Source of the DNA: a virus | Lineage: Duplodnaviria; Heunggongvirae; Uroviricota; Caudoviricetes | Virus record (IMG/VR): IMGVR_UViG_3300042860_001920 | Strand: one strand, 5' to 3' | DNA length: 64,000 bases | Shown: positions 28,942 through 44,808 of the stretch, piece by piece | Layout: each line of letters starts with the position of its first letter | How positions within the stretch are numbered: the first letter of the stretch is position 1 | The notes under the pieces: generated by a model | Database searches by the model: none | Told to the model about the DNA's origin: nothing | Seen by the model: only the letters and a program-made list of their open reading frames with translations | Position numbers and translations under genes: made by a program

Positions 28942-29202
28942 TCATACTTTTACAGGATGTACAGTAATAAATTTGTGAACGAGAAACTTACCAGAAATTT
29001 CCCCCTTCTTAGTAAATTCTTTGTCACCCATTCCTGTCATGTATAAGTGTCGGTGCAATAAACATCGATTTGTCAATAAATTTAAAAGGTTGAATCCTTT
29101 ACGTGTAACCTTAATCATTCTGGTTTTAATAATCTTACCATTATAATAAGATACATCGTAGAACTCACCTAATTTCAAATCAACTGACTGTAGGTTTCTC
29201 AT
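28942..29202 (-). CDS. Hypothetical protein
   Basis: 86-aa ORF. Confidence 0.45.
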   Translation of the reverse strand: MRNLQSVDLKLGEFYDVSYYNGKIIKTRMIKVTRKGFNLLNLLTNRCLLHRHLYMTGMGDKEFTKKGEISGKFLVHKFITVHPVKV

Positions 29203-30362
29203 ATATCAAATCGATCAATATTAACCGCTACACCAAAATGTAACTTACCATACTTGGTGAAATTCTGATAACGAACTGTTGCCTTTTTGCCAATGTAATG
29301 CTTACGATCCTTCAACAACTGAGTGACGTATGCAGTATCACCACGGATACCCGCTTCTGACGTTGAACCATCTTTCAAACGGACTACGATCTTACTAGCC
29401 AACCCTGCATCAGAACCAGTACCTTCAAGAAAATCAACAATCACAAACTCTTCATCAATGAAATGCTTATACTTCAAAAGATACTTACTACGCTTATTGT
29501 AATACGGAGCATTGGCATAACGAAGAATTGCACCTTCAAATCCTTCACCCGCATACTTATCATGTTCAGCTTCAAACGCTTCATGACTGTTGATTACTAC
29601 ATTCTCTACAAACACAAAATACTTTTCAAGTGTTTTAGAATCAATAGTAGCCTTCAATTCTCGTTTAAGGTCTGAAAAACGCTTTGCAAAACCTTCCTTT
29701 GAATCGTCTACAATACCATCGAAAATCCACAATTTACAAAGCTTCTCACTTTCATCAATTTCAGCTTGTGTTGGTTTCTTCTTACGCACAAGACTCATGA
29801 TCTTCTCAAAGAATTGACCGTGTGAATAAATTTCACCATCAACCACACCTTTAGGATGCTTGGCAAAGAAGGGTTTAAGTGCCTTCTGAATATGTGGACA
29901 GCTTAGATAATCTTCACCCTTACGAGTGGTAATAGCTGTAGCTGTATTCACCATTCTTGCACCATCGATCTTACGACTTGCCAAGATGGGGAATACAACA
30001 CTATCCTTAAATTCAATATACTTTTCAGCAAGTTGTGGCTCAAAATACTTTAGACAGGTATCGATATTTGCAATATCTTCACTATAGCCTGTTTTAAGCT
30101 TCTTTTCAATTTTAGCTTCTGCCTCTGCAATAGCCTGTTGTTCATCGGAAGTCTCATTAGCCTTGCCAATGTTCTTACCCTTACACACAGTAGGCGCAGA
30201 TTTGCTCTTAACACCGTCTATTTGACCATCTACGGTATAATAAGTGTTACCCTCGACTATGATCTGCCATGTCTGAATTGCTGACGTTTTAGTTCTTTTG
30301 TAAATAATTGGATATGTTTTATTCATGTTTAATAGACTACATTGTTTAATTGTATTAGTCAA
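29199..30362 (-). CDS. ATP-dependent polynucleotide ligase (DNA-ligase-like, KxDGxR family)
   Basis: Motif I RKIDGARMV; motif III DGEIYSHG; motif IV EGFEGAILRY; motif V LLKYK. Confidence 0.7.
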   Translation of the reverse strand: MTNTIKQCSLLNMNKTYPIIYKRTKTSAIQTWQIIVEGNTYYTVDGQIDGVKSKSAPTVCKGKNIGKANETSDEQQAIAEAEAKIEKKLKTGYSEDIANIDTCLKYFEPQLAEKYIEFKDSVVFPILASRKIDGARMVNTATAITTRKGEDYLSCPHIQKALKPFFAKHPKGVVDGEIYSHGQFFEKIMSLVRKKKPTQAEIDESEKLCKLWIFDGIVDDSKEGFAKRFSDLKRELKATIDSKTLEKYFVFVENVVINSHEAFEAEHDKYAGEGFEGAILRYANAPYYNKRSKYLLKYKHFIDEEFVIVDFLEGTGSDAGLASKIVVRLKDGSTSEAGIRGDTAYVTQLLKDRKHYIGKKATVRYQNFTKYGKLHFGVAVNIDRFDI

Positions 30363-30365
30363 TAA

Positions 30366-30593
30366 TTATTTTCCATCATCAGTATAACGATTTTTGGCAT
30401 CCACCAACTCTTGAATCTTCTCGACAATATGCTCATTACCCTTTGGGAATTTTGATGAAGGAAGACCAACGATCTTACCAATTCTTTCAACTAACCTATA
30501 CCATTCAACAAAATCTGATATCTCTGCATCAAGTTCTGCCATAATTCTATTATTCATTTCATCAATATCATTTCGTAGTGTGTCAAAATCCAT
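30366..30593 (-). CDS. Hypothetical protein
   Basis: 75-aa ORF. Confidence 0.4.
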   Translation of the reverse strand: MDFDTLRNDIDEMNNRIMAELDAEISDFVEWYRLVERIGKIVGLPSSKFPKGNEHIVEKIQELVDAKNRYTDDGK

Positions 30594-30594
30594 A

Positions 30595-30933
30595 TTAATC
30601 CTTTAATTTGAGATAGATTAAACTAGGTTTACGAGACTGTTTCAATTGTTTGCCTAAAGCATATCCCGCAACTCTAGCACTCGCTTGTTCTACAAAATTC
30701 TTAGCTACAATGTAATTTAAGTCACCTTTGATAAGCTTTAGAACCTTTGGTTTCCAACTCTTCCTAACACCAAGTGTATGTGAAGCATAATTTTTACGAT
30801 ACATAGCAATAGTGTTGTAAGGTCGATTGATTACCTGTTCAATTTCTTGATTAGTCAAATGCCAAGGGACACTCGACCAAAATTTAACTGCATCTTCATG
30901 TGATTTCTTAGCTAGTTTTTCAAAGTTATTCAT
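30595..30933 (-). CDS. Hypothetical protein
   Basis: 112-aa ORF. Confidence 0.45.
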   Translation of the reverse strand: MNNFEKLAKKSHEDAVKFWSSVPWHLTNQEIEQVINRPYNTIAMYRKNYASHTLGVRKSWKPKVLKLIKGDLNYIVAKNFVEQASARVAGYALGKQLKQSRKPSLIYLKLKD

Positions 30934-30941
30934 ATTAAGCC

Positions 30942-31175
30942 TTACCCGATACGTAATCTAACTGGTTTCTCAAAATATTCAATTTCATCATCTTTAAGGA
31001 TAATGCCAATTCTGCATATACCTGTTTGACACGCAAACGTACCATCTTCATTTTTAGTCAAAATATCATCATCAAATAACAACCAAGTGTCGTTTTTATC
31101 TCTAGGACATGGTGCAGGATAGCGACCTTCCTTTTTAACTTTGTAATACTTCTCTATTGTAAAATCATATCCCAT
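30942..31175 (-). CDS. Hypothetical Cys-containing protein
   Basis: 77-aa ORF. Confidence 0.4.
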   Translation of the reverse strand: MGYDFTIEKYYKVKKEGRYPAPCPRDKNDTWLLFDDDILTKNEDGTFACQTGICRIGIILKDDEIEYFEKPVRLRIG

Positions 31176-31185
31176 AATTTATCCT

Positions 31186-31764
31186 TTATTTACCGTAGCC
31201 AGTAGTATACGCAATTATTGGTGCAAAGTCAAGATATTGTTTCGGAACATTATCAGTCAACCATACCCCATTCTCGGATTTGTAAAACTTAAACCCATTC
31301 TTATGCATTACACCCGCATGTACCATAAGAATAATAGGTTCTCCATGTCGTGAACCTACTGAATAAGCTGTTTTAAGATTGTCAGATAAATGAACGTGTT
31401 GACGCTCCATTTTCTTCAAACCTTCTTTCATGATACCATTAAGAAAACGTTTAGCTGTTCCATGATATAAAATATCTTCTGGAACACTCTCAGGAAGATT
31501 CAAATTAATATTAATCGAATGTCCCTGAGAGGCACGAATCTTTGTACCATCATCACTATAGGCGAAACGCTTCTTATTGTTCTCTTCAACCACCTTATCA
31601 AGAAAATTCCTATTAAGGTAAGTGTCAGGCTTATAGTAATTATTGTATCTGCGGATTAATTCATTGACATCAACCCAACCTTCGGAATCCATATTCAATT
31701 TCAAAAGTTCTGGTTTATGTCGTAAACTTAAACACAATATTTTACTAACTTTGCGAATGTCCAT
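31186..31764 (-). CDS. kptA: RNA 2'-phosphotransferase (Tpt1/KptA)
   Basis: LRHKPE, EGW, KKRFAYSDDGTKIRASQGHS, LYHGTAKRFL, RQHVHLS, ENGVWLT all align with KptA/Tpt1. Confidence 0.9.
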   Translation of the reverse strand: MDIRKVSKILCLSLRHKPELLKLNMDSEGWVDVNELIRRYNNYYKPDTYLNRNFLDKVVEENNKKRFAYSDDGTKIRASQGHSININLNLPESVPEDILYHGTAKRFLNGIMKEGLKKMERQHVHLSDNLKTAYSVGSRHGEPIILMVHAGVMHKNGFKFYKSENGVWLTDNVPKQYLDFAPIIAYTTGYGK

Positions 31765-31765
31765 A

Positions 31766-32120: not shown

Positions 32121-33311
32121 TTATTCCTCTTCCGCTTTCACATTGTAAATAGGCTTGATCTGCTTCAACACCGTAACCGTATCCTGAATGTTCTCCAAGA
32201 TTTCAGCAATAGGCTTGTAAGCATCAGGTGCTTCGTCCAACGTAGACGCACCCACCGTAGATGAATAAATATCCTTCATCGTATCCTTGAACCCTTCCAA
32301 AGACAATTCACGCTTCGCCTGTTTACGAGACATTAAACGACCTGCACCATGAGGCGCAGAATAGTTATAATCTTCGTTACCCTTACCAACACAGATTAAC
32401 GAACCATCACGCATATTGATAGGAATTAAGCACACTTCACCCGCTTTCGCAGAGATAGCACCTTTACGCAAAATCATAGCATGAACATCAATGTAGTTAT
32501 GAATCGTTTCAAATTGTTCAGTAGGCTTAATATGCATTGTACGGCACAAGATATCTGCAATAGCCTTACGGTTCTCACTTGCCATCTTCTGAGCAATATG
32601 CATATCGTTTAAGTAACAATCAAACAAGTCACCTTCCAAATAGGTCAAAGCTTCGTTAGCCACGGCATTACGTTTCTTCAATTCAGCAGGAATCATGTGT
32701 TGTAACCCCTTGGCTTTCAACTCGTTAATGATTTCTTGAGTAGACTTCAAACCCTTCTTGGAATGATAATCAACAGCCTTGTTCTGGTAATGTTCAGCAA
32801 CACGCTTACCAAAGTTACGAGAACCCGTATGTACGACTAAATAAAAATTACCCTCATCGTCCTTATCAATTTCGATAAAGTGGTTTCCACCACCCAACGA
32901 ACCAATGGACTTACAAACCTGACGAGGATCAAAAGCTTCCTTACAGATAGCCTTATCCAATTCAGGAGTAAAGTCAACCACCATAGACTGACGAGAATTC
33001 ATACCCATAGGGATGTTACGCTTAACAATTGAGTCAACCTGTTCCAAGGTTAAAGAAAGCGTATCAAATTTAGTCACAAGAACCCCACATCCGATATCAA
33101 CCCCGGTTAAATTAGGAACAATTTTATCAATAATTGTCATAGTAGTACCAATAACACATCCCTTACCAGAATGACAGTCTGCCATAATGCGTATTTTAGA
33201 GTTATATACCCATTCTTCATTACATAACTCTAAAATTTGTGCTTCACAAGAAGGTTCGACTGTTGATGCAAACACCTTCGCAGTATTAAATTGTCCTTTA
33301 ATCTCTTTCAT
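32121..33311 (-). CDS. rtcB: RNA-splicing ligase RtcB
   Basis: 396 aa with CHSGKGCVIGTTM, HTGSRNFG and PHGAGR RtcB-like blocks. Confidence 0.85.
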   Translation of the reverse strand: MKEIKGQFNTAKVFASTVEPSCEAQILELCNEEWVYNSKIRIMADCHSGKGCVIGTTMTIIDKIVPNLTGVDIGCGVLVTKFDTLSLTLEQVDSIVKRNIPMGMNSRQSMVVDFTPELDKAICKEAFDPRQVCKSIGSLGGGNHFIEIDKDDEGNFYLVVHTGSRNFGKRVAEHYQNKAVDYHSKKGLKSTQEIINELKAKGLQHMIPAELKKRNAVANEALTYLEGDLFDCYLNDMHIAQKMASENRKAIADILCRTMHIKPTEQFETIHNYIDVHAMILRKGAISAKAGEVCLIPINMRDGSLICVGKGNEDYNYSAPHGAGRLMSRKQAKRELSLEGFKDTMKDIYSSTVGASTLDEAPDAYKPIAEILENIQDTVTVLKQIKPIYNVKAEEE

Positions 33312-33350: not shown

Positions 33351-34046
33351 TTATATTGGTTTTTCTAATTTATATAGTGTCCAACCTTTAAGATTTCTTC
33401 GTCCACCGTCAGGTAATATTAAAGCGTGTTTAAATTGTTGATAGTCTGAACCACATTCTTTAATTTTCTTTTTGATTCCACCTTCTATTATAAAAATTTC
33501 ACCTATGGGCGATACTAATTTCCATAAATTTGAGTGTGGATTATTTAAACCTAATTTCGTATCTGATAATTTTTTTCTAGTTTCAGGATTCTTTGTATAG
33601 TGTTCACCAGTTTTAGGATCAATTCCTATAGGATTTAATTTTACTCTTTCTGATGCTTTTCTTTTCTGTTCATCAGTCCATCGATTACCATAATTACCAT
33701 TCTTCTTGCCACGATTAGATTCACTAAGTTTTTTGCGCCATTCTTCTTTATTAGGATGATTAGTCCAATTGTCACCCCATGTTCCACCCTCACAAATATT
33801 ATAACCCACATTGCGGTCATTAGCTTTTAATGTGGCTATCCAGTATCTTTCTCGTTCTAATAGCTGTTCCTGTGTAGAACATTCTTCTAAAATAACTTTT
33901 ACAAAATTCTCTGCACCATAACATTCAATAGCTTTCTTTAAGATATAACCAGAACCTAAATACTCTGGATTTTCTTGTGGCGCAAACTTTGAAAGTCCGA
34001 TATAAATTTTACCATTTAATTTGTTAGTTGTCTTGTAAATGTACAT
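33351..34046 (-). CDS. GIY-YIG homing endonuclease (Seg/I-TevI-like with NUMOD repeats)
   Basis: IYKTTNKLNGKIYIGLS ... RERYW ... NVGYN; C-terminal NUMOD-like KKLSESNRGKKNGNYGNRWT. Confidence 0.8.
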   Translation of the reverse strand: MYIYKTTNKLNGKIYIGLSKFAPQENPEYLGSGYILKKAIECYGAENFVKVILEECSTQEQLLERERYWIATLKANDRNVGYNICEGGTWGDNWTNHPNKEEWRKKLSESNRGKKNGNYGNRWTDEQKRKASERVKLNPIGIDPKTGEHYTKNPETRKKLSDTKLGLNNPHSNLWKLVSPIGEIFIIEGGIKKKIKECGSDYQQFKHALILPDGGRRNLKGWTLYKLEKPI

Positions 34047-34112: not shown

Positions 34113-34499
34113 TTATTTCAAACATTTAATTGAATCTGCGCCATATGTTCCACTTGGAGCCATCCAACTAAAGCAACCAACACCTTTTTTGGATTTTTTA
34201 AGCTTCCAAAAATCATCAATTTGCATTAAATTAGAAACTATTTTAATTTTTGAAGCCCCTTGTGCAATACAAGGAACAATAAAAAGTTCGTTATAATCTT
34301 TACTATTTATATCTCGAAAGATTTCGGCGTGTACTAATTTTTTGAAAAATAATATCTTAGTACCCGCTACTTTAGGTTTAACTGTAACACCTACAGGGTA
34401 ATGTAAAATATACTTTCCTTGCTCTGTGCAACCCATTGTCGTAACTGCCGACCTTCTATCTTTTACTCTAATTACTTTCCAACCCTTTATAGTTTTCAT
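34113..34499 (-). CDS. Hypothetical protein
   Basis: 128-aa ORF. Confidence 0.45.
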   Translation of the reverse strand: MKTIKGWKVIRVKDRRSAVTTMGCTEQGKYILHYPVGVTVKPKVAGTKILFFKKLVHAEIFRDINSKDYNELFIVPCIAQGASKIKIVSNLMQIDDFWKLKKSKKGVGCFSWMAPSGTYGADSIKCLK

Positions 34500-34999
34500 A
34501 TTACCTTTCCTTCTTTATATCCAATTTCATTTTCAACCCATGCTCTGGTAACAGGCGCAATAATCATTTTCAACCTATTTTTAGTATACCACGCTAGAAC
34601 CTCATCCTTACTATTGATAGCCATCCCTGCACCTCTCCAATCTGCTACCATCTCCTGACGGTATACCAATGGCATTTCTAAGGGGCGTAGCTTACCATCA
34701 TCATTCTTCAATAGCCAATATTGGGGATGATGTTTATTACATTTCTGGTGAGACTTCCAAGCATAATCAAAGTTTGTTGCACATTCATCAGTATTGCTTA
34801 AATCTCCATAAAAGTATTCACGATAAGGTATAAACTCTGATGGACGCAATTTTGATAAATCGTGTACAAGCCCTCGCCAAACCAATCCATATTTTAGACA
34901 GGCTTTAAAAACGTAGTACTTATGTATTAAAATGTATCTTAGATATTTTAGATTAATATTCATTTTTCTTTCCTGCCTGTCTTGCTGACTTCTTATCAA
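34496..34999 (-). CDS. Hypothetical protein
   Basis: 167-aa ORF. Confidence 0.45.
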   Translation of the reverse strand: MIRSQQDRQERKMNINLKYLRYILIHKYYVFKACLKYGLVWRGLVHDLSKLRPSEFIPYREYFYGDLSNTDECATNFDYAWKSHQKCNKHHPQYWLLKNDDGKLRPLEMPLVYRQEMVADWRGAGMAINSKDEVLAWYTKNRLKMIIAPVTRAWVENEIGYKEGKVI

Positions 35000-35508: not shown

Positions 35509-36804
35509 TTATTTCTTAGGCATTACAGGTGCTACTTCATCCTTTTGGGACAATCCTACCCATGTCTGCGCCCCTGCTCCTGCAACGGTGCTAGGATACG
35601 TGCCATTCCACTTGTCGATACGTGCCTTCTCAACCTCAATTTGACGCAACTCAATCAACTGAGGGTTGTTATTAGCCTTGGCAAGTGCGACATTGATAAA
35701 CTCAATACCATCAGCTTCACCCTTGGCTTTTGAACGTGACGCTTCTGCAAGTGCCGTAGCCTCGCTATTAATACGAGCATTCTTATCCTTCTGTGCATCC
35801 AAGAAAGCTGACGCATTAACCTTTTCCTGCTGACTTACAAAGGTCTGATCGATAGCATCCTGAATCTTAGGATTTTCATAGGTCATACCACCGAACATAC
35901 CAACCATTGTAATAGTGATACCACGAGTCTTGAAGAACTCAATAACATCTTCCTGAACCTTCTTTGCCATTTCATTCTTCTTATTACGCAAATCGTCAAG
36001 CTTATACTGAGCAGAGAAGTTAGCAGAAGTCATTTGAACCCTTCCACGAATTTCACTATTCATAACAGCTTTCAAACCAGAACTAGGGTAGAAGTACAAG
36101 AAATTAGAAGCATCCTCTTCCTTGATATAAGCGGTACAAGTCCAACCCATGCTGAATCCAACTGAATCCATACTTTCAGTCCAGATAGCATTATCTTTAC
36201 CCTTTACCTGACCTTCTTTTGCAACCCATTCCTCTGTAACAGGTTGACGATCAACGATAATCAATACAGAAGTCGGAATATACTTACCATCAGCGATCAA
36301 GCGACCTTCCTGTACCCAACGATGCATAACCTGAATACGCTTAGATGCAACCTTTTTCGTTTCCAAGAATGATGCAGAGTTGAACTTCACTTGACCGTTT
36401 CCGTCAATATCCAAAGGAATGACGAAAGCTGTCTCATTAGGCTTAACATCCCTGTATTCAGGAATATCGTAAGGTCGCATACAACCAGTAGTATTCAAAC
36501 CAATGATAAGCATACCAATAACAATACTCACGTTCTTACCAGTATTCTTAGGAAGGAACATAAACATTGCCACGATGCCAAGCAAAGCCACTAATACAGT
36601 CTTAATCAAGAACTTATTAGCTGTAAACACGTTCAAGGTCTGCCAATCGCCATCAGTTCCATTCACATTGGCAAGAGCCAACTTCGTAGAAATGACAGGT
36701 TCAACAGCCTGACCCCACAACGCACAAATACACACTACCACCAACGTCAACAATCCCAACACAATCAACTTTGTTTTCATTTTTATTCTTTCTTTTACTA
36801 ACAT
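35509..36804 (-). CDS. SPFH (band 7 / prohibitin-like) membrane protein
   Basis: Two N-terminal TM segments; central SPFH-like region; Ala/Lys-rich coiled coil. Confidence 0.55.
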   Translation of the reverse strand: MLVKERIKMKTKLIVLGLLTLVVVCICALWGQAVEPVISTKLALANVNGTDGDWQTLNVFTANKFLIKTVLVALLGIVAMFMFLPKNTGKNVSIVIGMLIIGLNTTGCMRPYDIPEYRDVKPNETAFVIPLDIDGNGQVKFNSASFLETKKVASKRIQVMHRWVQEGRLIADGKYIPTSVLIIVDRQPVTEEWVAKEGQVKGKDNAIWTESMDSVGFSMGWTCTAYIKEEDASNFLYFYPSSGLKAVMNSEIRGRVQMTSANFSAQYKLDDLRNKKNEMAKKVQEDVIEFFKTRGITITMVGMFGGMTYENPKIQDAIDQTFVSQQEKVNASAFLDAQKDKNARINSEATALAEASRSKAKGEADGIEFINVALAKANNNPQLIELRQIEVEKARIDKWNGTYPSTVAGAGAQTWVGLSQKDEVAPVMPKK

Positions 36805-37708: not shown

Positions 37709-38827
37709 TTAAAGTGTGTAATAAATCAACTTTTTGTAAATCTCGCTAATTGCGTAATTATCAACAGCATATCGAAGCTTAGTAGTATCCTTTAATACTT
37801 CCAATTCCTTCATCTTTTCTTCAACAGCGTTCATAATAAAATTATATTCAAACTTACCTGCACGAATGTCACGTAGATACTGCAACTGTTCACCATCAAA
37901 TCGAACAAGTGGCACACCATTTGTCAAGATGTTCTTTCCACTTAACATTAGTCTCATGCAATGCATCATATTCTTTTGATCGTAGTCAAGCAATCCCTTT
38001 TCCTGATCCACCCAACGTGCATCATTACGATTATTCTTCCACTCCCAATAAGACTTCCATTCAGCTACATCACGCTTATAGGCATCTTCATTCCAAATGA
38101 GTAAGCCATAAAACTTAGTAACTTCGTCTTCCAATGGGATAGACTCTGGCACAAGATTTTCATCACCACGAAACACACCTTTAGCTTCATCACCGTAGTA
38201 ATAAAGTCTATAGATATGTGCAGTTTGTTCAAGTCTAGCACAATTAAATTTACTCAAATCAAAAGGAACTACTTCGGTACTGCCACCATAAGTACTAGTA
38301 ATTTCAGTAAGTTTAATAGGTCTAGCAGGTGGAAGATTGTATATCCTTCCCTCTGGAATTACAAAGCAGTAATCTTCCTTGACAGGACGCTCTACAGGCT
38401 TCGGATTATTCACCTTCTTATTCTTACCCTTTGCCTTTTGAATCTGTGCATAAGCGTATCCATTAAAACTATGGTAAGACTTCTGACTTACAAACAATTC
38501 ATTATTGGTAAGTAATACATCCATTCGGGCATCCTTATAAATGATGCACTCAGCGGGAGTAAACAATAGCTCTAACACATTGGGATTATTTTCAGCGCAA
38601 AGTTGCATGAACTTCTGTAGTTCAAAAAACTTGATATCCTGTTTATCATCAGCGACTTCCAATTGGTGATCGTCAAATAAAGTCTTTTCACTTTCAGGAA
38701 AAATATAGATACCCCTGATATCGGTATCAGAGGTTTCAATATTGGTTCCATAAGCATGTGAACCACTGATACATTCAAAGATGATGTATCCTGTCTTTCG
38801 CAAATCTTCAACAGTCATTTTCTTCAT
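37709..38827 (-). CDS. Pol-beta-superfamily nucleotidyltransferase
   Basis: N-terminal ISGSHAYGTNIETSDTDIRG (GS ... DxD). Confidence 0.55.
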   Translation of the reverse strand: MKKMTVEDLRKTGYIIFECISGSHAYGTNIETSDTDIRGIYIFPESEKTLFDDHQLEVADDKQDIKFFELQKFMQLCAENNPNVLELLFTPAECIIYKDARMDVLLTNNELFVSQKSYHSFNGYAYAQIQKAKGKNKKVNNPKPVERPVKEDYCFVIPEGRIYNLPPARPIKLTEITSTYGGSTEVVPFDLSKFNCARLEQTAHIYRLYYYGDEAKGVFRGDENLVPESIPLEDEVTKFYGLLIWNEDAYKRDVAEWKSYWEWKNNRNDARWVDQEKGLLDYDQKNMMHCMRLMLSGKNILTNGVPLVRFDGEQLQYLRDIRAGKFEYNFIMNAVEEKMKELEVLKDTTKLRYAVDNYAISEIYKKLIYYTL

Positions 38828-38829
38828 AA

Positions 38830-39291
38830 TTAATCTTCCGCAATCAAAATTTTATCGGCTTTATCGATACAAGAGATATTAGGTCGTTGTAAGATGTTAC
38901 CCATTCGTTCAATCACTTCTTCTGGAACCTTATCTTCTACTCGCTTACTATTACGAGAATAGCACTTCATAATGGGTATGTCAATAAAAACAATTTTGGT
39001 AGTATATTCGTATTCATCAGCCATATTCACCCACTCATTACGAATTTGTGCCACCAAACCAGTTGAATTTATAATCACATCTTTGCCTTGTGATAAAAGC
39101 ATTCTGGTAATACTTTTCGCCATACCGATGATAAATGGTTCAGCTTCTTTATGATACTGATGTCCAAAGATATGTCTACGAATCCAATCAAGTTCAACTA
39201 CAACGTGAGACTTCTTGTTATTTTTAATCCAAGTGTTCTTACCACAAGCGGGTAAGCCCATCATTATAATCATTTCAGGCTTCTTTTTCAT
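38830..39291 (-). CDS. Polynucleotide 5'-kinase (Pnk kinase-domain-like, no phosphatase domain)
   Basis: Walker A GLPACGKNTW; SRNSKRVEDKVPEEVIERM matches T4 Pnk KRNSKRGTKAVPIDVLRSM. Confidence 0.65.
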   Translation of the reverse strand: MKKKPEMIIMMGLPACGKNTWIKNNKKSHVVVELDWIRRHIFGHQYHKEAEPFIIGMAKSITRMLLSQGKDVIINSTGLVAQIRNEWVNMADEYEYTTKIVFIDIPIMKCYSRNSKRVEDKVPEEVIERMGNILQRPNISCIDKADKILIAED

Positions 39292-39800
39292 TTTGGTATC
39301 TTTTTAGTTATAGCGGGACATTCACCGCAATGACATTTATAATATCCGTGACTAACATTCTTAGTTAGATATCCACACTTTTTACAACTTCTCTCAAATT
39401 TTTCTTTACTAATTGAAGGTTTATAATGAGTTTTTTCTTCAGGTGGTGCAATTGATTTCTTATCAACTGTCCACACTGAAATTAAGCGAGGAACCTTATA
39501 AATCCTACGATCTTTTTTCATCGCTTCAAATGTTATAGATTCTTCACTAATAGTTTCTACTATTTGATTCAAAACGTCTTCCTCAGTATTACCATTAGCC
39601 ACAACACCACTCAATATAGAAGGACGAATAATTTCACAGAGTGTACTAATATTATTCTGTAATCCACCATAATAGCGAGTCAAGTTGCCGTTTCCTGTCG
39701 CTCTACCATTAGGACGTTCATGGATGATAATTTCAATATCATTTTCATCACAGAACTCTTCAAGCGAAACCTCTCTTAGAAAGTCACGTACAATTTTCAT
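39288..39800 (-). CDS. Hypothetical protein with C-terminal zinc ribbon
   Basis: CKKCGYL...CHCGEC. Confidence 0.45.
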   Translation of the reverse strand: MKIVRDFLREVSLEEFCDENDIEIIIHERPNGRATGNGNLTRYYGGLQNNISTLCEIIRPSILSGVVANGNTEEDVLNQIVETISEESITFEAMKKDRRIYKVPRLISVWTVDKKSIAPPEEKTHYKPSISKEKFERSCKKCGYLTKNVSHGYYKCHCGECPAITKKIPK

Positions 39801-40096
39801 ACTTCCTCAACTCTATAGATAGAATTATCTGTAAATACAAACAACTTACCATAATTTTTACCAGTTTTTTTAACCGTTGAAGAAACAAACATTCCATCAA
39901 CTTTAACACCATTTCGACAATCACGCTCCAATAGGATAGATTCGCCTACGACAATTGGTTTAACCAATTTCCCTGTAACCCAATACCCATCAAACGGTGA
40001 CAAGTCATTAAGATGTCCACACTCATACTGTTCAACACTTGCAGTAGGTACAAGCGGATTATCAACAGCACTAATTTTAGTTATTTTAGTTTTCAT
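39797..40096 (-). CDS. Hypothetical protein
   Basis: 99-aa ORF. Confidence 0.45.
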   Translation of the reverse strand: MKTKITKISAVDNPLVPTASVEQYECGHLNDLSPFDGYWVTGKLVKPIVVGESILLERDCRNGVKVDGMFVSSTVKKTGKNYGKLFVFTDNSIYRVEEV

Positions 40097-40995: not shown

Positions 40996-41059
40996 ATAAC
41001 ACGCACATTAGCAACATTTTACACCAAATAGTAAAAGGATTACAATGATAATAATAGCT

Positions 41060-41801: not shown

Positions 41802-42332
41802 TTAACCTTTCAACTTATAGACTACCACAGCGATATCATTTTTGCAAAGGATATCTTCAACCATCTGTACAATTTTGTTCCAATCACCTCTGGCACGATC
41901 TGCACCCATTTTATAAGGCATATGTACAGAAAATTCAAATCTTTCTGCATAATTCTTAACATGCGTTAAACAACTATCCAAGGCATCATAGCGGATAGGT
42001 GGATTACCATGTTCATCAGCACCAACCATGTGTTGACCTACCATATTAGCTACCACGATATCATATAGTGATGGTGGGGATACAGTCACAAATTGTGTCT
42101 TACCTAGTCGGAAAGCTGTATCAACATCAAAAGTATTCGGTTCATTAAACCATCGAATGTATTCACTACGAACTTTAGGCCATTTTTCATACAAAGCTCT
42201 AGCAACGCCAGAACCCATCATACCTTGATCGTTCACTATATGCATAATAAGCGTACTAACTAATATTCCATTATCACTAACAAGTGAAATAGGATCAGTA
42301 AGATCACCCTCAACATATTTTATTTTAACCAT
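41802..42332 (-). CDS. Macro domain protein (ADP-ribose binding/processing)
   Basis: KYVEGDLTDP ... HIVNDQGMMGSGVARAL resembles the macro-domain GDIT ... VNAAN ... GGGV core. Confidence 0.6.
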   Translation of the reverse strand: MVKIKYVEGDLTDPISLVSDNGILVSTLIMHIVNDQGMMGSGVARALYEKWPKVRSEYIRWFNEPNTFDVDTAFRLGKTQFVTVSPPSLYDIVVANMVGQHMVGADEHGNPPIRYDALDSCLTHVKNYAERFEFSVHMPYKMGADRARGDWNKIVQMVEDILCKNDIAVVVYKLKG

Positions 42333-42609
42333 AATATTCCTGCCATTCTTTACCTATAATACGTTCTCTTCGACGTTCCAAAGATGCTTTAGCTTCTTCA
42401 CTATCACATGGTTGGAATGGTGACAAGTTTAATATACCGTTTTGTCTACGTTCAATCTCACGCAATAAACATAGATTACCATATTCCATAGCATCATTAC
42501 CTTTATACATATGACAGAAGGCATCCCTTGCCACTTTCGGCACAGGACACCCACCGCACATAGCAAAGGCGATATCTTCACCGTATGCAGTTATCATATT
42601 AAATACCAA
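42325..42609 (-). CDS. Hypothetical Cys-rich protein
   Basis: 94-aa ORF. Confidence 0.4.
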   Translation of the reverse strand: MVFNMITAYGEDIAFAMCGGCPVPKVARDAFCHMYKGNDAMEYGNLCLLREIERRQNGILNLSPFQPCDSEEAKASLERRRERIIGKEWQEYYG

Positions 42610-42848
42610 ATAGAACTATGAATCCACAACCAGAAGTGAACAACATTACAAAGATAATTAATAGTATTAAGATTATTGCTGTATGTTTCATATTATTCCC
42701 CTTGTCTGATAAAGATAGCCCATCCCATTAAAAAGATTGCGATATCTCGGAATTTTGATCCATCATCTCCACTAGTTCCGAATCCTATTAAACCGAATGC
42801 TAGGTAAAAAATCACATAAGATGCTATTGTCATTGATTTGTTCATAAT

Positions 42849-43982
42849 TTATTCCTCATGTTTAATTAAGTAATCAGGACTACGTGCCTTGACTGATACG
42901 CTAGGATTCTCATTTAATCGTAAAACAACACCCTCACGCATAGTCTTGTATAACACAGATGTCCCATTACTGTATCCAAGTAAGTAATGTACAATAACAT
43001 CCTTGGTATTGCAAACTATTTCTTTAGAAGGAACGAAGTTTGCATCAAGTACAGGCACAGTCGTTAAACCATGCTTATCACAAAATGCCTTCAATTCATC
43101 TACACCTAAACGTTTACCATCCATATACACGTTGAATACAAATAGATCAACACCAGTAAGTTTATAGATATTACCCTGAATACCCTCACCTACTTGCTCA
43201 CCCTGAATAGCAACACGGCACTTGTAAGACTTTAAAACCTTCTCAAGATCATATCGCTTTGCGGTCTGCCAGTACTTAGAGTTGTCAGGTTTCTCAAGTT
43301 TGATATTACGAGAGCATACACCAAACACCTTACGATTGAAACCCCAATGTTTCTCAAACGTGGTATAGAATGTCGCACTCTGTCCCTCTAACTTCTCAGT
43401 CACATAAAAACTCTTCTCAAAGTTCTCAGAAATGACATTGTACATATTCTGGATATTCTCTTCATCAGTCTTAGAGACAACACCGACAGGCCAACCGTTC
43501 TCCTTTTGATTTAATTTTAAGTAAACCGTTCTAAAGGCTTTGAAGTTCATAAGGTATCTAAGCACCTTGTTCTGGTGTTTAGGGACGCTAAGAGCTTTCT
43601 CTTCCTGTGCCTGTGGATCATACTTAGTGATACCCATAAGTGCTGTAACATCATCACCCTCTTCAATAGTCTTTAATGAAATTAGAGCATGACGTAAATT
43701 AGAAATAGTATCAATAGGAACGATAAGACCTTGTGAAAGCTGTTTACGAAGCTTGATAGTTCTTACACGGAACTTACGCTCACGAAGGAATTCAAATTCA
43801 GGACGATCAGGTACTAGTGAATCAATTTCGATATAGACGACTAAATCACCAATCTTGAATCCATCCTTCTTAGCCACAACAACTTGCCAACCCTTGACAA
43901 AGGCTAGTTCGATTTTATCAGCACCGTCAATGGCTTTAACATCAATAATTTTCTGAATACTTGCTAATTTTCTCTCACTCAT
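42849..43982 (-). CDS. RNA ligase (Rnl2/Rnl5-like; N-terminal OB-like module plus nucleotidyltransferase)
   Basis: Candidate motif I TEKLEGQSATFY, compare T4 Rnl2 EKIHGTNFS. Confidence 0.5.
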   Translation of the reverse strand: MSERKLASIQKIIDVKAIDGADKIELAFVKGWQVVVAKKDGFKIGDLVVYIEIDSLVPDRPEFEFLRERKFRVRTIKLRKQLSQGLIVPIDTISNLRHALISLKTIEEGDDVTALMGITKYDPQAQEEKALSVPKHQNKVLRYLMNFKAFRTVYLKLNQKENGWPVGVVSKTDEENIQNMYNVISENFEKSFYVTEKLEGQSATFYTTFEKHWGFNRKVFGVCSRNIKLEKPDNSKYWQTAKRYDLEKVLKSYKCRVAIQGEQVGEGIQGNIYKLTGVDLFVFNVYMDGKRLGVDELKAFCDKHGLTTVPVLDANFVPSKEIVCNTKDVIVHYLLGYSNGTSVLYKTMREGVVLRLNENPSVSVKARSPDYLIKHEE

Positions 43983-43993
43983 TTTAATTCTCC

Positions 43994-44158
43994 TTATTTA
44001 CAAAAATGATATATCAATCCACCGACGATTACAAGCAAAATAATAATACCAAATATAGGCATCATATCTTCAATCTCATCATCAGTAGCGTACATCTTAA
44101 ATACGATTAGATTCCAAAATCGTTGTGAATCTTTATCATCCCCACCTAGACCGAGCAT
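43994..44158 (-). CDS. Small membrane protein
   Basis: C-terminal TM IFGIIILLVIVGGLIY; start trimmed to the internal ATG to remove the overlap. Confidence 0.35.
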   Translation of the reverse strand: MLGLGGDDKDSQRFWNLIVFKMYATDDEIEDMMPIFGIIILLVIVGGLIYHFCK

Positions 44159-44159
44159 A

Positions 44160-44486
44160 TTAGATATCCTCTCCTGCCATTTCATTGTAAGCACTATCCA
44201 AATCTTTTTCCAATTCTGCCACACGCTTACGTAACTCTTTATTCTCTTCCTCAATCTTACGCATAGGATGCTTTTCACATACCTTGATGTGCTCTGTCAA
44301 GACTTCTGAACCGTGTGTAGGTGTGTTAGGTGGATACATTTGCCCACAATACACACAAGTCAACGTCTGTGTAGTACGTTGAAGCTTTTGAACCCATTCC
44401 CTAGCTTCATTACGCTCTTTGGTAAGAGTTTCAATTTGAGTATTCAACCCATTAAAAGCACCTTCAACCATTTCAACTATCTTCAC
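44160..44486 (-). CDS. Coiled-coil protein with CxxC/HxxxC pair
   Basis: 108-aa ORF. Confidence 0.45.
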   Translation of the reverse strand: MKIVEMVEGAFNGLNTQIETLTKERNEAREWVQKLQRTTQTLTCVYCGQMYPPNTPTHGSEVLTEHIKVCEKHPMRKIEEENKELRKRVAELEKDLDSAYNEMAGEDI

Positions 44487-44808
44487 AATTCTCTCCTTTA
44501 ATCGTTGTTACTTTAATATTATTCTCTTCTAAAAGTTTCGCACATACTGGACAACATTCAATTGGTCTAAGTATGCCACTCTTCCCTGTTCTTAGCAAGA
44601 CAATACTGAATAATCTTTGTCCATACTTACGTAAGGCTTGAATTTCGGCATGAAAACCTCCACCCTTACGATTAAACCGTTGGCTATTAACCACCACACC
44701 AAGCAATTTACCACGCTTATCAAAGCATATCACAGCTACCTTAGTGTGACAATGACTTTTTAAAGCTTTACGTATTCCTTGTTGCACCAATTCGGGTGAA
44801 GCTGTCAT
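44473..44808 (-). CDS. CDA-fold zinc deaminase (TadA/dCMP-deaminase-like)
   Basis: GFHAEIQAL and PIECCPVCAKLL match the HAE ... PCxxC deaminase signature. Confidence 0.6.
   Translation of the reverse strand: MTASPELVQQGIRKALKSHCHTKVAVICFDKRGKLLGVVVNSQRFNRKGGGFHAEIQALRKYGQRLFSIVLLRTGKSGILRPIECCPVCAKLLEENNIKVTTIKGENCEDS

What the first reader, a model, noticed from the sequence alone, without database searches (positions are those of the whole stretch)
29199..44808. Dense RNA-repair / tRNA-maintenance gene set
Within about 16 kb the phage encodes the following:
- RtcB (3'-P/5'-OH ligase).
- Tpt1/KptA (2'-phosphotransferase).
- An Rnl-type RNA ligase with an N-terminal OB-like module.
- A Pnk-like 5'-kinase domain that lacks the T4 phosphatase domain, next to a Pol-beta-type nucleotidyltransferase.
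- A TadA-like CDA-fold deaminase.
- An ATP-dependent DNA-ligase-like enzyme.

Elsewhere in the window there is a CCA-adding enzyme with an HD domain, which could supply the cyclic phosphodiesterase or phosphatase step, together with tRNA genes that already encode CCA.

This is a far more redundant RNA-healing and sealing kit than the T4 Pnk plus Rnl1 pair. It implies counter-defence against host anticodon nucleases or tRNA-targeting toxins, with both the 5'-P/3'-OH pathway and the RtcB-type 3'-P/5'-OH pathway present.
Basis: partly seen in the sequence, partly recalled or inferred. Interest (0 to 1): 0.75.

Follow-up and report, generated by a model that had tools for sequence, protein, structure and literature searches.

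The report
Jumbo-phage RNA repair gene cluster
An uncultured giant phage carries, within about 13 kb, two different RNA-joining enzymes and the helper enzymes that prepare broken RNA ends, next to genes that rebuild the cofactor NAD+; this kind of kit has already been catalogued in giant phages, so this is a rich new example and not a new kind of system.

Summary
Profile and structure-database searches confirm these minus-strand genes:
- RtcB (32121-33311)
- Tpt1/KptA (31186-31764)
- an Rnl5/DraRnl-type RNA ligase with an N-terminal OB module (42849-43982)
- a stand-alone Pnk-like kinase (38830-39291), abutting an RlaP Pol-beta nucleotidyltransferase (37709-38827)
- an ATP-dependent DNA ligase (29199-30362)
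- a minimal CDA-fold deaminase (44473-44808)
- a CCA-adding/HD enzyme (4704-6179)
- tRNA genes with encoded CCA

Corrections:
- "TadA-like" is not supported for the deaminase.
- The DNA ligase is an ordinary phage DNA ligase and probably not part of RNA repair.
- The ligase belongs to a nick-sealing family, not the T4 Rnl1 anticodon-loop type.

- a macrodomain protein (41802-42332)
- a probable HD-fold hydrolase, DUF5662 (34496-34999)
- an MPPED2-like metallophosphoesterase
- NADAR
- NAMPT plus NMNAT-Nudix NAD+ salvage

The most likely function is multi-route RNA end healing and sealing, coupled to NAD+ supply, as counter-defence against RNA-cleaving host systems. This is inferred from homology only. 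Iyer et al. (2021, 2022) already describe such kits in jumbo phages, so this is a new member of a known kind. No 2',3'-cyclic phosphodiesterase of the 2H type was found, so the step that would feed Tpt1 is unassigned.

The parts
42849..43982 (-). Rnl5 (DraRnl/NgrRnl-type) ATP-dependent RNA ligase: N-terminal OB module plus nucleotidyltransferase domain, motif I K197 (KLEG)
   Evidence: PF21189 E=1.5e-30 and PF09414 E=7.3e-22. phrog_968 E=1.7e-73. PDB 5cot E=6.7e-39 over both domains. TIGR02306 153.4 bits against cutoff 151.15. Motifs.
41802..42332 (-). Macrodomain protein. It is a candidate ADP-ribose-1''-phosphate or ADP-ribosyl hydrolase that processes the Tpt1 by-product.
   Evidence: PDB 2afc/2fg1 (BT1257) E=2e-25 and 5e3b 'Macrodomain protein' E=2.4e-21. 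phrog_335 E=2.6e-28. Homologues occur in 572 phage records, some annotated as Appr-1''-p phosphatase-related or lying next to Sir2/ART genes.
39797..40096 (-). 99-aa ORF of unknown function. Its stop overlaps the start of the next ORF by 4 nt, making it the first gene of a tightly packed four-gene run.
   Evidence: Coordinates. No Pfam or PHROG hit.
39288..39800 (-). 170-aa ORFan with a C-terminal Cys-rich (zinc-ribbon-like) tail. It overlaps the kinase start by 4 nt.
   Evidence: sequence. No family hit. The only database match is the same protein.
38830..39291 (-). Stand-alone polynucleotide 5'-kinase module (Pnk-like) with no phosphatase domain. Walker A is GLPACGKN. D35, R38 and R117 match T4 Pnk D35, R38 and R126.
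   Evidence: AAA_33 E=3.2e-21. phrog_505 E=1.4e-26. PDB 1ly1 E=4.6e-9 and Clostridium Pnkp kinase 4gp7 E=4.5e-7. The GKN variant is shared by the three nearest representatives.
37709..38827 (-). RlaP (RNA-ligase-associated Pol-beta nucleotidyltransferase), with G22SHAYG and D34xD36
   Evidence: PF10127 E=4.7e-23. phrog_388 E=7.5e-50. Motifs. Biochemistry of family members: they add 1-2 NMP to the RNA 3'-OH (PMC12776372).
34496..34999 (-). DUF5662 protein, a probable HD-fold metal-dependent phosphohydrolase and a candidate 3'-end healing enzyme. The likely start is the ATG at 34963.
33351..34046 (-). Free-standing GIY-YIG/NUMOD3 homing endonuclease inserted just upstream of RtcB. It is a mobile element, not a repair component.
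   Evidence: PF01541 E=1.4e-7 and PF07460 E=3.7e-6.
32121..33311 (-). RtcB RNA ligase (3'-P or 2',3'>P plus 5'-OH). The active-site residues are conserved.
   Evidence: PF01139 E=7.3e-59. Alignment to P. horikoshii RtcB conserves D95/C98 (DIGCG at 72), N202/H203 (GNHF at 142), H234 (HTGSR at 161) and the nucleophile H404 (HGAGR at 321).
31186..31764 (-). Tpt1/KptA NAD+-dependent RNA 2'-phosphotransferase, with catalytic tetrad R15, H16, R66, R121
   Evidence: PF01885 E=2.5e-48. NF002014 231.5 bits against cutoff 239. PDB 7kw8 E=5.8e-48, aligned with RslTpt1 R16, H17, R64 and R119 (residues from PMC6097658).
29199..30362 (-). ATP-dependent DNA ligase (KIDG motif I). The likely start is the ATG at 30326. 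It probably acts in DNA replication or repair, not RNA repair.
   Evidence: PF01068 E=7.9e-15. phrog_114 E=1.8e-66. PRK09125 E=2.2e-30. The gene is called as 375 aa in other assemblies.
44473..44808 (-). Minimal CDA-fold zinc deaminase (HAE, CxxC), substrate unknown
   Evidence: PF00383 25.9 bits against cutoff 25. Motifs. AF2 pLDDT 72 with an alpha-beta-beta-alpha-beta-alpha-beta core. Foldseek neighbours are blasticidin-S and cytidine deaminases, dCMP deaminase, and a tRNA deaminase at rank 12.
27118..27858 (-). MPPED2-like metallophosphoesterase, a second candidate for cyclic-phosphate or phosphate removal, or else a cyclic-nucleotide phosphodiesterase
   Evidence: PF00149 E=7.9e-8. PDB 3rl4 E=9.2e-19. 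phrog_1649.
4704..6179 (-). Class II CCA-adding-type nucleotidyltransferase with a C-terminal HD domain
   Evidence: PF01743, PF12627 and PF01966. CCA models score 198 bits against 154 for PcnB, all below the curated cutoffs. GGSVRD and DID motifs.
21744..24278 (-). NAD+ salvage pair: NAMPT (21744-23123) and NMNAT-Nudix (23370-24278). It can recycle the nicotinamide released by Tpt1.
   Evidence: PF18127 and PF04095. PRK09198 539 bits against cutoff 405. NadM-type NMNAT/Nudix similarity to 2qjt and 2qjo.
13472..13990 (-). NADAR-domain protein (processes ADP-ribose derivatives)
   Evidence: PF08719 E=3.2e-42.
54905..55610 (-). tRNA-Leu(UAA) at 54905-54987 and tRNA-Lys(UUU) at 55536-55610, both with an encoded 3' CCA
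   Evidence: ARAGORN, Rfam, sequences.

Best explanation
This is an accessory region of an uncultured jumbo phage. It encodes several complementary routes for repairing RNA, most plausibly tRNA, that has been cut by transesterifying host nucleases leaving 2',3'-cyclic-phosphate and 5'-OH ends.

Route 1. RtcB joins 2',3'>P or 3'-P ends directly to 5'-OH ends.

Route 2, heal and seal:
- The stand-alone Pnk-like kinase phosphorylates the 5'-OH.
- A phosphoesterase removes the 3'-terminal phosphate. The candidates are the HD-like DUF5662 protein, the MPPED2-like metallophosphoesterase, and the HD domain of the CCA enzyme.
- RlaP restores one or two nucleotides that were trimmed from the 3' end.
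- The Rnl5 ligase seals the 3'-OH/5'-P break where the ends are held in a duplex-like context.

Route 3. Any 2'-phosphate left at a junction is transferred by Tpt1 to NAD+.
- The ADP-ribose phosphate by-products are cleared by the macrodomain, NADAR and Nudix proteins.
- NAMPT plus NMNAT turn the released nicotinamide back into NAD+.

The CCA-adding enzyme and the phage tRNAs back up the tRNA pool.

Shown here: family membership and intact catalytic motifs of each enzyme, their linkage, and recurrence of parts of the linkage in other phages.

Inferred: the substrates, the order of steps, which enzyme heals the 3' end, and the counter-defence purpose.
For: - Family assignments with conserved catalytic residues.
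- Tight packing of the run 99-aa ORF, 170-aa ORF, kinase, RlaP, with 4-nt overlaps and a 2-nt gap.
- RlaP family members add 1-2 NMP to damaged RNA 3'-OH ends and restore aminoacylation of over-trimmed tRNA: PMC12776372.
- The cluster is conserved intact in many metagenomic assemblies of the same phage. The RtcB sequence is indexed in 43 blocks of the collection, on contigs up to 0.2-1 Mb.
- In other viral contigs Tpt1 lies within 10 kb of RlaP (4 of 10 loci), of RtcB (1 of 10), or directly beside an AAA_28 kinase-like gene (1 of 10).
- DUF5662 lies next to an Rnl5 ligase in an unrelated 131-kb viral contig, and 2 kb from a TROVE/Ro60 gene in another.
- NAD+/ADP-ribose genes are in the same window.
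- Published surveys describe the same combinations in jumbo phages and interpret them this way: PMC7824862 section 3.4.9; PMC9503650 section 3.7.3.
Against: - No experiment bears on this phage.
- No 2H or cRec cyclic phosphodiesterase was found in the window (Pfam scans). The enzyme that would create a 2'-phosphate substrate for Tpt1 is therefore missing or unrecognised.
- Rnl5 enzymes characterised so far seal nicks in duplexes, not anticodon loops (PMC1807946, PMC4408790), and their physiological role is unknown.
- The metallophosphoesterase resembles a cyclic-nucleotide phosphodiesterase.
- The repair genes are interspersed with about 20 unknown ORFs, two membrane proteins and a homing endonuclease, so they are not one compact operon.
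- The kinase has Asn where T4 Pnk has its essential Ser16.
Confidence: 0.65

Rival explanations
1. The genes form a loose collection of independent accessory genes in a hyperplastic genome region, not one pathway. In this reading Tpt1, the macrodomain, NADAR, Nudix and NAMPT/NMNAT mainly serve the NAD+/ADP-ribose conflict: they replenish NAD+ against NADase defences, destroy ADP-ribose-derived signals, or reverse ADP-ribosylation. Only RtcB, or only the kinase-RlaP-Rnl5 set, repairs RNA.
For: - The genes are interspersed with many unrelated ORFs, a homing endonuclease and membrane proteins.
- A distant relative has only the backbone Rnl5 - DUF5662 - DNA ligase - NMNAT-Nudix - NAMPT, so the other genes were added piecemeal.
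- Homologues of this macrodomain in other phages sit next to Sir2/ART genes.
- The macrodomain has a weak DarG-like hit.
Against: - Tpt1 recurs near RlaP and RtcB in other viral loci.
- Tpt1 orthologues are bona fide RNA 2'-phosphotransferases (PMC6097658).
- The macrodomain lies only about 500 nt downstream of the Rnl5 gene.
Confidence: 0.2
2. The kit serves the phage's own RNA metabolism and not counter-defence. It would mature or recycle phage tRNAs and tRNA-like RNAs, or rejoin RNAs cut by phage-encoded nucleases during host takeover.
For: - The window carries tRNA genes, an odd tRNA-like element at 44998-45078 directly upstream of the cluster, and a CCA-adding enzyme.
- RtcB is a tRNA-splicing ligase in archaea and eukaryotes (established knowledge).
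Against: - The phage tRNAs found have no introns and already encode CCA.
- No splicing endonuclease was detected.
- RlaP-type nucleotide restoration fits damage repair better than programmed processing.
Confidence: 0.1
3. Tpt1 and the macrodomain form a reversible cap system. Tpt1 would ADP-ribosylate 5'-phosphate ends of RNA or DNA, protecting or marking them, and the macrodomain would remove the mark.
For: TRPT1/Tpt1 enzymes can ADP-ribosylate 5'-phosphorylated nucleic-acid ends and macrodomain hydrolases reverse this. The title and abstract of PMC9458441 support the TRPT1 part. The rest is from my own knowledge of Shuman-lab and Ahel-lab work and was not read here.
Against: - The two genes are 10 kb apart.
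- The 5'-capping activity is a side reaction in only some Tpt1 orthologues.
- Nothing in the sequence discriminates this activity.
Confidence: 0.05

Closest known systems
Jumbo-phage RNA repair and NAD+/ADP-ribose arsenals as catalogued by Iyer, Anantharaman, Krishnan, Burroughs & Aravind 2021 (PMC7824862) and Iyer et al. 2022 (PMC9503650)
   Same: It has the same component list: RtcB and ATP-dependent RNA ligase in one phage, polynucleotide kinase, calcineurin-like or HD-like phosphoesterases, KptA with Macro/NADAR/Nudix, RlaP, a CCA-adding enzyme, phage tRNAs and NAMPT plus NMNAT-Nudix salvage. The proposed logic is also the same.
   Different: - The ATP-dependent ligase here is Rnl5 (DraRnl type), whereas those surveys say most phage ligases are Rnl1 or Rnl2.
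- No 2H or cRec cyclic phosphodiesterase and no HAD phosphatase was found in this window.
- DUF5662 is not mentioned in the sections of those papers I read.
Phage T4 Pnkp + Rnl1 tRNA repair (counter to PrrC)
   Same: It uses the same heal-and-seal logic: 5'-kinase, 3'-end healing, then an ATP-dependent ligase. T4 also has an RlaP homologue, NrdC.11.
   Different: - The kinase is stand-alone without the HAD phosphatase domain.
- The ligase is Rnl5, not Rnl1.
- RtcB, Tpt1 and the macrodomain are additional.
Runella slithyformis candidate RNA repair cluster (HD-Pnk, ATP-dependent ligase, Tpt1, MTase-HIT; PMC6097658)
   Same: - Tpt1 is clustered with a polynucleotide kinase, an HD-type phosphoesterase candidate and ATP-dependent ligases.
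- The phage Tpt1's closest solved relative is Runella Tpt1.
- The same open question applies: what makes the 2'-PO4 substrate?
   Different: - Here the kinase and the HD-like protein are separate genes 4 kb apart.
- The HD-like protein is DUF5662, and its relation to the Runella HD domain was not tested.
- There is no MTase-HIT gene.
- RtcB and RlaP are present.
Fungal/plant Trl1 + Tpt1 tRNA splicing pathway with Cpd1/Poa1 clean-up
   Same: These components are all present as separate proteins: kinase, ATP-dependent ligase, Tpt1, and a macrodomain of the kind that dephosphorylates ADP-ribose-1''-phosphate.
   Different: - No 2H cyclic phosphodiesterase was found.
- The ligase is not Trl1-like, and its tolerance of a 2'-PO4 is unknown.
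Bacterial RtcB-RlaP-RtcA operons of Pseudomonas (PMC12776372)
   Same: RtcB and RlaP occur in one repair locus.
   Different: - There is no RtcA and no RtcR.
- RlaP here abuts a kinase and is 4.4 kb from RtcB. This fits the 5'-P ligase route, which avoids the RlaP/RtcB end-incompatibility noted by those authors.

Membership tests
RtcB RNA ligase | Match to the RtcB profile above the curated threshold | tested here: met
   PF01139 scores 200.5 bits against a cutoff of 27. The NCBIfam equivalog models score below their cutoffs, so the protein is a divergent RtcB.
RtcB RNA ligase | Metal-binding residues and the His-GMP nucleophile (P. horikoshii D95, C98, N202, H203, H234, H329, H404) | tested here: met
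   The alignment to 4dwr/1uc2 shows D72, C75, N143, H144, H161 and H321 conserved. The H329 equivalent (HNY at 271) is assigned by motif only.
RtcB RNA ligase | GTP- and Mn2+-dependent joining of 3'-P or 2',3'>P ends to 5'-OH ends | not testable with these tools
   This needs an enzyme assay.
Tpt1/KptA RNA 2'-phosphotransferase | Profile match over the full length | tested here: met
   PF01885 scores 164.9 bits against a cutoff of 26. PDB 7kw8 E=5.8e-48 over residues 4-178. NF002014 scores 231.5 bits, just below its equivalog cutoff of 239.
Tpt1/KptA RNA 2'-phosphotransferase | Catalytic Arg-His-Arg-Arg tetrad (RslTpt1 R16, H17, R64, R119) | tested here: met
   R15, H16, R66 and R121 align with the tetrad (the residue list is from PMC6097658).
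Rnl5 (DraRnl/NgrRnl) RNA ligase | N-terminal OB module fused to a C-terminal adenylyltransferase domain that ends shortly after motif V, with no C-terminal accessory domain | tested here: met
   PF21189 covers residues 6-90 and PF09414 covers 191-359 of 377 aa. Both domains align to NgrRnl 5cot.
Rnl5 (DraRnl/NgrRnl) RNA ligase | Family-specific equivalog model and the motif I lysine | tested here: met
   TIGR02306 scores 153.4 bits against a cutoff of 151.15. K197 in KLEG aligns with KLDG of NgrRnl.
Rnl5 (DraRnl/NgrRnl) RNA ligase | Sealing of 3'-OH(RNA)/5'-PO4 nicks in duplexes | not testable with these tools
   This needs an enzyme assay.
T4-type bifunctional Pnkp | 5'-kinase P-loop domain with T4 residues K15, S16, D35, R38, R126 | tested here: inconclusive
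   K18, D35, R38 and R117 are conserved, but S16 is replaced by N19. The GKN variant is kept in the three closest representatives, and GKD occurs in 16 of 150 relatives.
T4-type bifunctional Pnkp | C-terminal HAD (DxDxT) 3'-phosphatase domain | tested here: not met
   The protein is 153 aa and the kinase domain spans residues 6-136, so there is no room for a phosphatase domain. It is a kinase-only relative, not a Pnkp.
RlaP (PF10127) nucleotidyltransferase | Profile match plus the Pol-beta signature G[SG]...DxD | tested here: met
   PF10127 scores 82.6 bits against a cutoff of 23. phrog_388 E=7.5e-50 over residues 15-362. The G22S and D34xD36 motifs are present.
Macrodomain | Sequence homology to solved macrodomains | tested here: met
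   2afc/2fg1 E=2e-25 and 5e3b E=2.4e-21 over the full length. There was no Pfam hit at E<0.01.
Macrodomain | Substrate class (Appr-1''-p, O-acetyl-ADPr, or protein- or nucleic-acid-linked ADPr) | not testable with these tools
   The substrate class cannot be read from the sequence. The annotations of homologues are mixed.
TadA tRNA adenosine deaminase | CDA-fold zinc site H(C)AE...PCxxC | tested here: met
   H53-A-E55 and C86-P-V-C89 are present. This feature is generic to the whole CDA superfamily.
TadA tRNA adenosine deaminase | TadA-specific profile match and the C-terminal beta5/helix elements (about 150-170 aa) | tested here: not met
   - There is no NCBIfam hit.
- The protein is 111 aa and ends after beta4 in the model.
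- The best PDB sequence hit to a tRNA deaminase is only E=0.023.
- The fold neighbours are led by blasticidin-S and cytidine deaminases.
ATP-dependent DNA ligase | Adenylation domain with KxDG, plus an OB domain | tested here: met
   PF01068 scores 55.5 bits against a cutoff of 26.2 and the KIDG motif is present. The OB_2 domain is weak at 18.9 bits against a cutoff of 28. phrog_114 E=1.8e-66 covers the full length.
CCA-adding enzyme (class II) with HD domain | PolyA_pol head, RNA-binding domain and HD domain | tested here: met
   PF01743, PF12627 and PF01966 are all above their cutoffs.
CCA-adding enzyme (class II) with HD domain | Discrimination from poly(A) polymerase | tested here: inconclusive
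   The CCA models score 198 and 192 bits against 154 for PcnB, but all are below the equivalog cutoffs.
HD-superfamily phosphohydrolase (for DUF5662) | Conserved H...HD...H...H...D metal-ligand pattern | tested here: met
   H14, H34, D35, H72, H79 and D108 are invariant in 35 homologues.
HD-superfamily phosphohydrolase (for DUF5662) | HD fold | tested here: inconclusive
- The top Foldseek hit is also an HD hydrolase, but at E=1.4.
- hhalign against the window's own CCA-HD domain found nothing.

The most novel reading that the evidence does not exclude
The phage encodes an unfused, NAD+-coupled 2'-phosphate RNA repair pathway equivalent to fungal/plant Trl1-Tpt1. In this reading:
- DUF5662 is a previously unrecognised HD-type enzyme that opens RNA 2',3'-cyclic phosphates.
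- The stand-alone kinase phosphorylates the 5' end.
- Rnl5 (or the DNA-ligase-like enzyme three genes from Tpt1) seals ends bearing a 2'-phosphate.
- Tpt1 removes the 2'-phosphate.
- The macrodomain and NADAR clear the ADP-ribose phosphate by-product.
- NAMPT and NMNAT regenerate NAD+.

This would give a physiological substrate to bacterial and phage Tpt1 and a function to both Rnl5 and DUF5662.
Probability: 0.12. Interest if true: 0.7.

Novelty: new member of a known kind. Interest (0 to 1): 0.35.

Why it matters
If the reading is right, this uncultured jumbo phage is a compact natural test bed for how RtcB-type and ATP-ligase-type repair divide labour. It could also address three open points:
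- what RNA 2'-phosphate substrate Tpt1 meets in bacteria or phage-infected cells (raised in PMC6097658);
- what Rnl5 ligases do in vivo (PMC5397189 calls their function uncharted);
- how RlaP products are fed to a ligase (PMC12776372 notes they are incompatible with RtcB but compatible with 5'-P ligases, which matches the kinase-RlaP adjacency here).

It also ties RNA repair to NAD+ salvage in one genome neighbourhood. The concept itself is already in the literature, so the value lies in a good specimen and a new candidate healing enzyme (DUF5662), not in a new principle.

Tried and rejected
- Megablast of the 15.6-kb region against 50,697 phage records gave no match, so no cultured close relative exists there.
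- An IMG/VR search with RlaP found one locus at 49% identity, but it shares no other gene with the window and gave no synteny information.
- The 170-aa ORF coupled to the kinase is an ORFan in the 5.8-billion-protein index.
- The deaminase has only four close relatives, so no functional transfer was possible.
- A motif scan for 2H phosphoesterases (two HxT/S motifs) over all window ORFs found only a chance hit in a phosphoribosyltransferase.
- No archease, RtcA, PrfH, TROVE or HAD phosphatase turned up among the roughly 70 ORFs scanned. Not every small ORF was scanned.
- Sigma-70 promoter and terminator scans were no better than shuffles. Only one plausible terminator appeared, after the SPFH gene at 35484-35469.
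- hhalign of DUF5662 against the window's CCA-HD domain found nothing.
- Foldseek of DUF5662 against the PDB found nothing significant.
- The afdb50 library was unavailable.
- I suspected stop-codon recoding in two Tpt1 loci where my ORF caller found nothing. The Tpt1 frames are intact there, so it was an artefact of my greedy ORF selection.
- Burroughs & Aravind 2016, the primary catalogue of RNA repair systems, is not held in the library. I relied on the two later papers from the same group.

Full report
**What is in the sequence**

The window has about 35% G+C. From 13.5 kb to its end nearly every long ORF is on the minus strand. I scanned the larger ORFs of the flagged region and its flanks against Pfam, PHROGs and NCBIfam, and searched many against PDB sequences. 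In transcription order (high to low coordinate) the informative genes are:

1. CDA-fold deaminase, 44473-44808. PF00383 scores 25.9 bits against a cutoff of 25.
2. RNA ligase with N-terminal OB module, 42849-43982. PF21189 plus PF09414.
3. Macrodomain protein, 41802-42332.
4. A tightly packed run of a 99-aa ORF, a 170-aa ORFan, a 153-aa Pnk-like kinase (38830-39291) and RlaP (37709-38827). The run has 4-nt overlaps and a 2-nt gap.
5. A Ser-rich membrane protein and an SPFH/Band-7 membrane protein.
6. DUF5662, 34496-34999.
7. A GIY-YIG/NUMOD3 homing endonuclease, 33351-34046.
8. RtcB, 32121-33311.
9. Tpt1/KptA, 31186-31764.
10. An ATP-dependent DNA ligase, 29199-30362.

Immediately downstream come:
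- an ABC-ATPase/GNAT fusion;
- an MPPED2-like metallophosphoesterase, 27118-27858;
- a denV-like glycosylase;
- NMNAT-Nudix and NAMPT.

Further on lie NADAR (13472-13990) and the CCA-adding/HD enzyme (4704-6179). tRNA-Leu and tRNA-Lys lie at 54.9-55.6 kb. Both encode their CCA ends.

**Checking each family**

- **RtcB.** It keeps the residues that bind metal and GMP in the Pyrococcus enzyme: D95/C98, N202/H203, H234 and the H404 nucleophile.
- **Tpt1.** Its closest solved relative is Runella slithyformis Tpt1 (E=5.8e-48). R15, H16, R66 and R121 align with the four residues shown to be essential in that enzyme (PMC6097658).
- **RNA ligase.** It matches Naegleria NgrRnl across both domains (E=6.7e-39). 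It passes the DRB0094 equivalog model (153.4 against 151.15 bits). Its motif I lysine is K197. It is therefore an Rnl5 enzyme. Phage members of this clade were noted when the clade was defined (PMC1807946).
- **Kinase.**
  - It is nearest to the kinase domain of T4 Pnk (E=4.6e-9) and of Clostridium Pnkp.
  - It keeps the Lys, Asp and two Arg residues that I recall as essential in T4 Pnk (my own knowledge of Wang & Shuman's mutational work, not read here).
  - It has Asn in place of Ser16.
  - The three nearest cluster representatives (56-58% identical) share GKN.
  - Of the 150 best relatives, 115 are stand-alone proteins under 200 aa.
  - It is therefore a real kinase-only family and not a truncated Pnkp.
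- **RlaP.** It has the G-S and DxD signature.
- **DNA ligase.** It matches phage ATP-dependent DNA ligases strongly (phrog_114 E=1.8e-66).

**What does not hold**

The deaminase has the generic HAE/CxxC zinc site, but nothing ties it to TadA:
- There is no NCBIfam hit.
- The best tRNA-deaminase hit in the PDB is E=0.023.
- Only four close homologues exist.
- A medium-confidence model (pLDDT 72) ends after the fourth strand.
- Its fold neighbours are led by blasticidin-S and small cytidine deaminases, with dCMP deaminases and one tRNA deaminase further down.

I treat it as a deaminase of unknown substrate.

The DNA ligase is best read as the phage's DNA ligase. In a distantly related 131-kb viral contig the homologous ligase sits in the same backbone order: Rnl5, DUF5662, DNA ligase, NMNAT-Nudix, NAMPT.

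- **Macrodomain.** The 176-aa protein at 41802-42332 is a macrodomain (2afc/2fg1 E=2e-25; 5e3b E=2.4e-21). Homologues are common in phages. They are sometimes annotated as ADP-ribose-1''-phosphate phosphatase-related, or sit next to Sir2/ART genes.
- **DUF5662.**
  - Its invariant residues are H14, H34-D35, K38, H72, H79 and D108.
  - A high-confidence model has pLDDT 96.
  - Foldseek gives nothing significant, although its top hit is also an HD hydrolase.
  - I call it a probable HD-fold phosphohydrolase.
  - Its neighbours elsewhere are an Rnl5 ligase (L010), a TROVE/Ro60 gene 2 kb away (L008), and queuosine-pathway genes (L012). The link to RNA repair is therefore suggestive, not consistent.
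- **NAD+ and ADP-ribose genes.** Together with NADAR, NMNAT-Nudix and NAMPT, the macrodomain gives Tpt1 a complete NAD+ supply and by-product disposal context.

**How it most likely works**

I propose three routes.

1. RtcB directly joins 2',3'>P or 3'-P ends to 5'-OH ends.
2. The kinase makes a 5'-phosphate. A phosphoesterase clears the 3' end; the candidates are DUF5662, the metallophosphoesterase and the CCA enzyme's HD domain. RlaP adds back one or two nucleotides. Family members do this and thereby rescue aminoacylation of over-trimmed tRNA (PMC12776372). Rnl5 then seals.
   - The kinase-RlaP adjacency fits the observation by those authors that RlaP products (3'-OH) suit 5'-P ligases but not RtcB.
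3. Tpt1 removes any junction 2'-phosphate using NAD+. The macrodomain, NADAR and Nudix proteins degrade the ADP-ribose phosphate products. NAMPT and NMNAT rebuild NAD+ from the released nicotinamide.

Family membership, intact motifs and linkage are shown here. Substrates, step order and purpose are inferred.

Two gaps weaken route 3. No 2H or cRec cyclic phosphodiesterase was found (and the Pfam scans). No ligase known to require or tolerate a 2'-phosphate is present.

Characterised Rnl5 enzymes seal nicks in duplexes (PMC4408790, PMC1807946), so a direct analogy to T4 Rnl1 acting on anticodon loops is not justified.

**Is the clustering meaningful?**

- The same cluster is found intact in many assemblies of this phage. 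The RtcB sequence is indexed in 43 blocks of the collection, with contigs reaching 0.2-1 Mb, so the phage is a jumbo phage.
- Only the Ser-rich membrane protein varies in length between strain variants.
- Among ten unrelated IMG/VR loci that encode a Tpt1 40-49% identical to this one, RlaP lies within 10 kb in four, RtcB in one, and an AAA_28 kinase-like gene is adjacent in one.
- The distant relative L010 shows that Rnl5 - DUF5662 - DNA ligase - NMNAT-Nudix - NAMPT is an older backbone. The macrodomain, kinase, RlaP, RtcB, Tpt1 and other genes have been added into it in this lineage.
- That pattern, together with the homing endonuclease beside RtcB, is what one expects of a hyperplastic accessory region. 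It leaves room for the rival view that the genes act independently.

**Comparison with what is known**

Iyer et al. 2021 describe jumbo phages that combine:
- RtcB with ATP-dependent RNA ligases;
- polynucleotide kinases;
- HAD, calcineurin-like or HD-like phosphatases;
- KptA with 2H and Macro domains;
- RlaP, "closely mirroring" the ligases;
- CCA-adding enzymes and tRNAs;
- NAMPT/NMNAT-Nudix salvage.

They interpret these as counter-measures to tRNA-cleaving host immunity. Iyer et al. 2022 repeat this for KptA and the NAD+/ADP-ribose network.

The present locus is a full example of that kind. Its particular features are:
- an Rnl5 ligase in place of Rnl1 or Rnl2;
- an unfused kinase with a GKN Walker motif;
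- DUF5662 as a new candidate healing enzyme;
- no recognisable 2H, cRec or HAD component in the 64 kb available.

**Verdict**

The locus is a new member of a known kind and of moderate interest. The most novel reading still open is a dispersed Trl1/Tpt1-like 2'-phosphate pathway with DUF5662 as the cyclic phosphodiesterase. I put it at about 12%.

Noticed in passing
window 44998-45078 (-): A tRNA-like element lies directly upstream of the cluster.
- It has a perfect acceptor stem and T arm (GGTTCGAATCC) and an encoded ACCA end.
- About 5 nt stand where the D arm should be, and there is an extra region of about 22 nt.
- The possible anticodon loop is UUUCUAC.
- Rfam tRNA scores 32.2 bits in a local scan, but the whole-window gathering scan does not report it and ARAGORN does not call it.
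- It is identical in two strain variants, so no covariation test was possible.
- The called 64-aa ORF 44808-45002 starts inside it.
   Followed up: partly
window 59648-59708 (-): A third tRNA match from Rfam scores 39.4 bits and covers model positions 6-65 only. ARAGORN does not call it. It may be a truncated or unusual tRNA.
   Followed up: no
window 21744-24278 (-), 13472-15133 (-): An NAD+ salvage and ADP-ribose processing set: NAMPT (539 bits against cutoff 405), NadM-like NMNAT-Nudix, NADAR, and an AAA_28 P-loop protein. A homologue of the AAA_28 protein sits directly beside Tpt1 in IMG/VR locus L019.
   Followed up: partly
window 33351-34046 (-): A free-standing GIY-YIG/NUMOD3 homing endonuclease gene is inserted between the DUF5662/128-aa pair and RtcB.
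   Followed up: no
window 36878-37687 (-): A Ser-rich protein with terminal hydrophobic segments has no family hit. Its length differs between otherwise near-identical strain variants (269, 251, 245 and 177 aa). It sits next to an SPFH/Band-7 membrane protein (35509-36804), which is followed by the only convincing terminator-like hairpin (35484-35469).
   Followed up: no
window 27878-28912 (-): A 344-aa fusion of an ABC-type ATPase domain and a GNAT acetyltransferase domain. It matches phrog_11143 (unknown function) at E=8.7e-82. Its role is unknown.
   Followed up: no
window 49973-53286 (-): A T4 rIIB-like protein (PF26926 in the precomputed annotation of identical contigs) lies next to a 727-aa protein with no Pfam hit, which may be the rIIA partner. 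A SprT-like protein is at 48372-48749.
   Followed up: no
window 9808-10763, 13993-14604, 25920-27065 (-): Nucleotide and DNA metabolism genes are scattered through the same block:
- a purine-type phosphoribosyltransferase;
- two nucleoside 2-deoxyribosyltransferase-like proteins;
- a dUTPase/dCTP-deaminase-like protein;
- a denV-like pyrimidine-dimer glycosylase.
A SPASM-domain protein is at 18232-19329.
   Followed up: no
window 38830-39291 (-): The kinase Walker A motif is GxxxxGKN, not GK[ST]. Among the 150 best representatives of the family, the residue after Lys is S in 95, T in 25, D in 16 and N in 5. The N cases include the three closest relatives.
   Followed up: yes
L012 6001-6504 (JGI 3300082323, 95-kb contig): In another phage the DUF5662 gene lies between QueD-like (PTPS) and QueE-like (radical SAM) genes, near GTP cyclohydrolase I. 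The family may therefore act on nucleotide substrates in some contexts and not on RNA ends.
   Followed up: no
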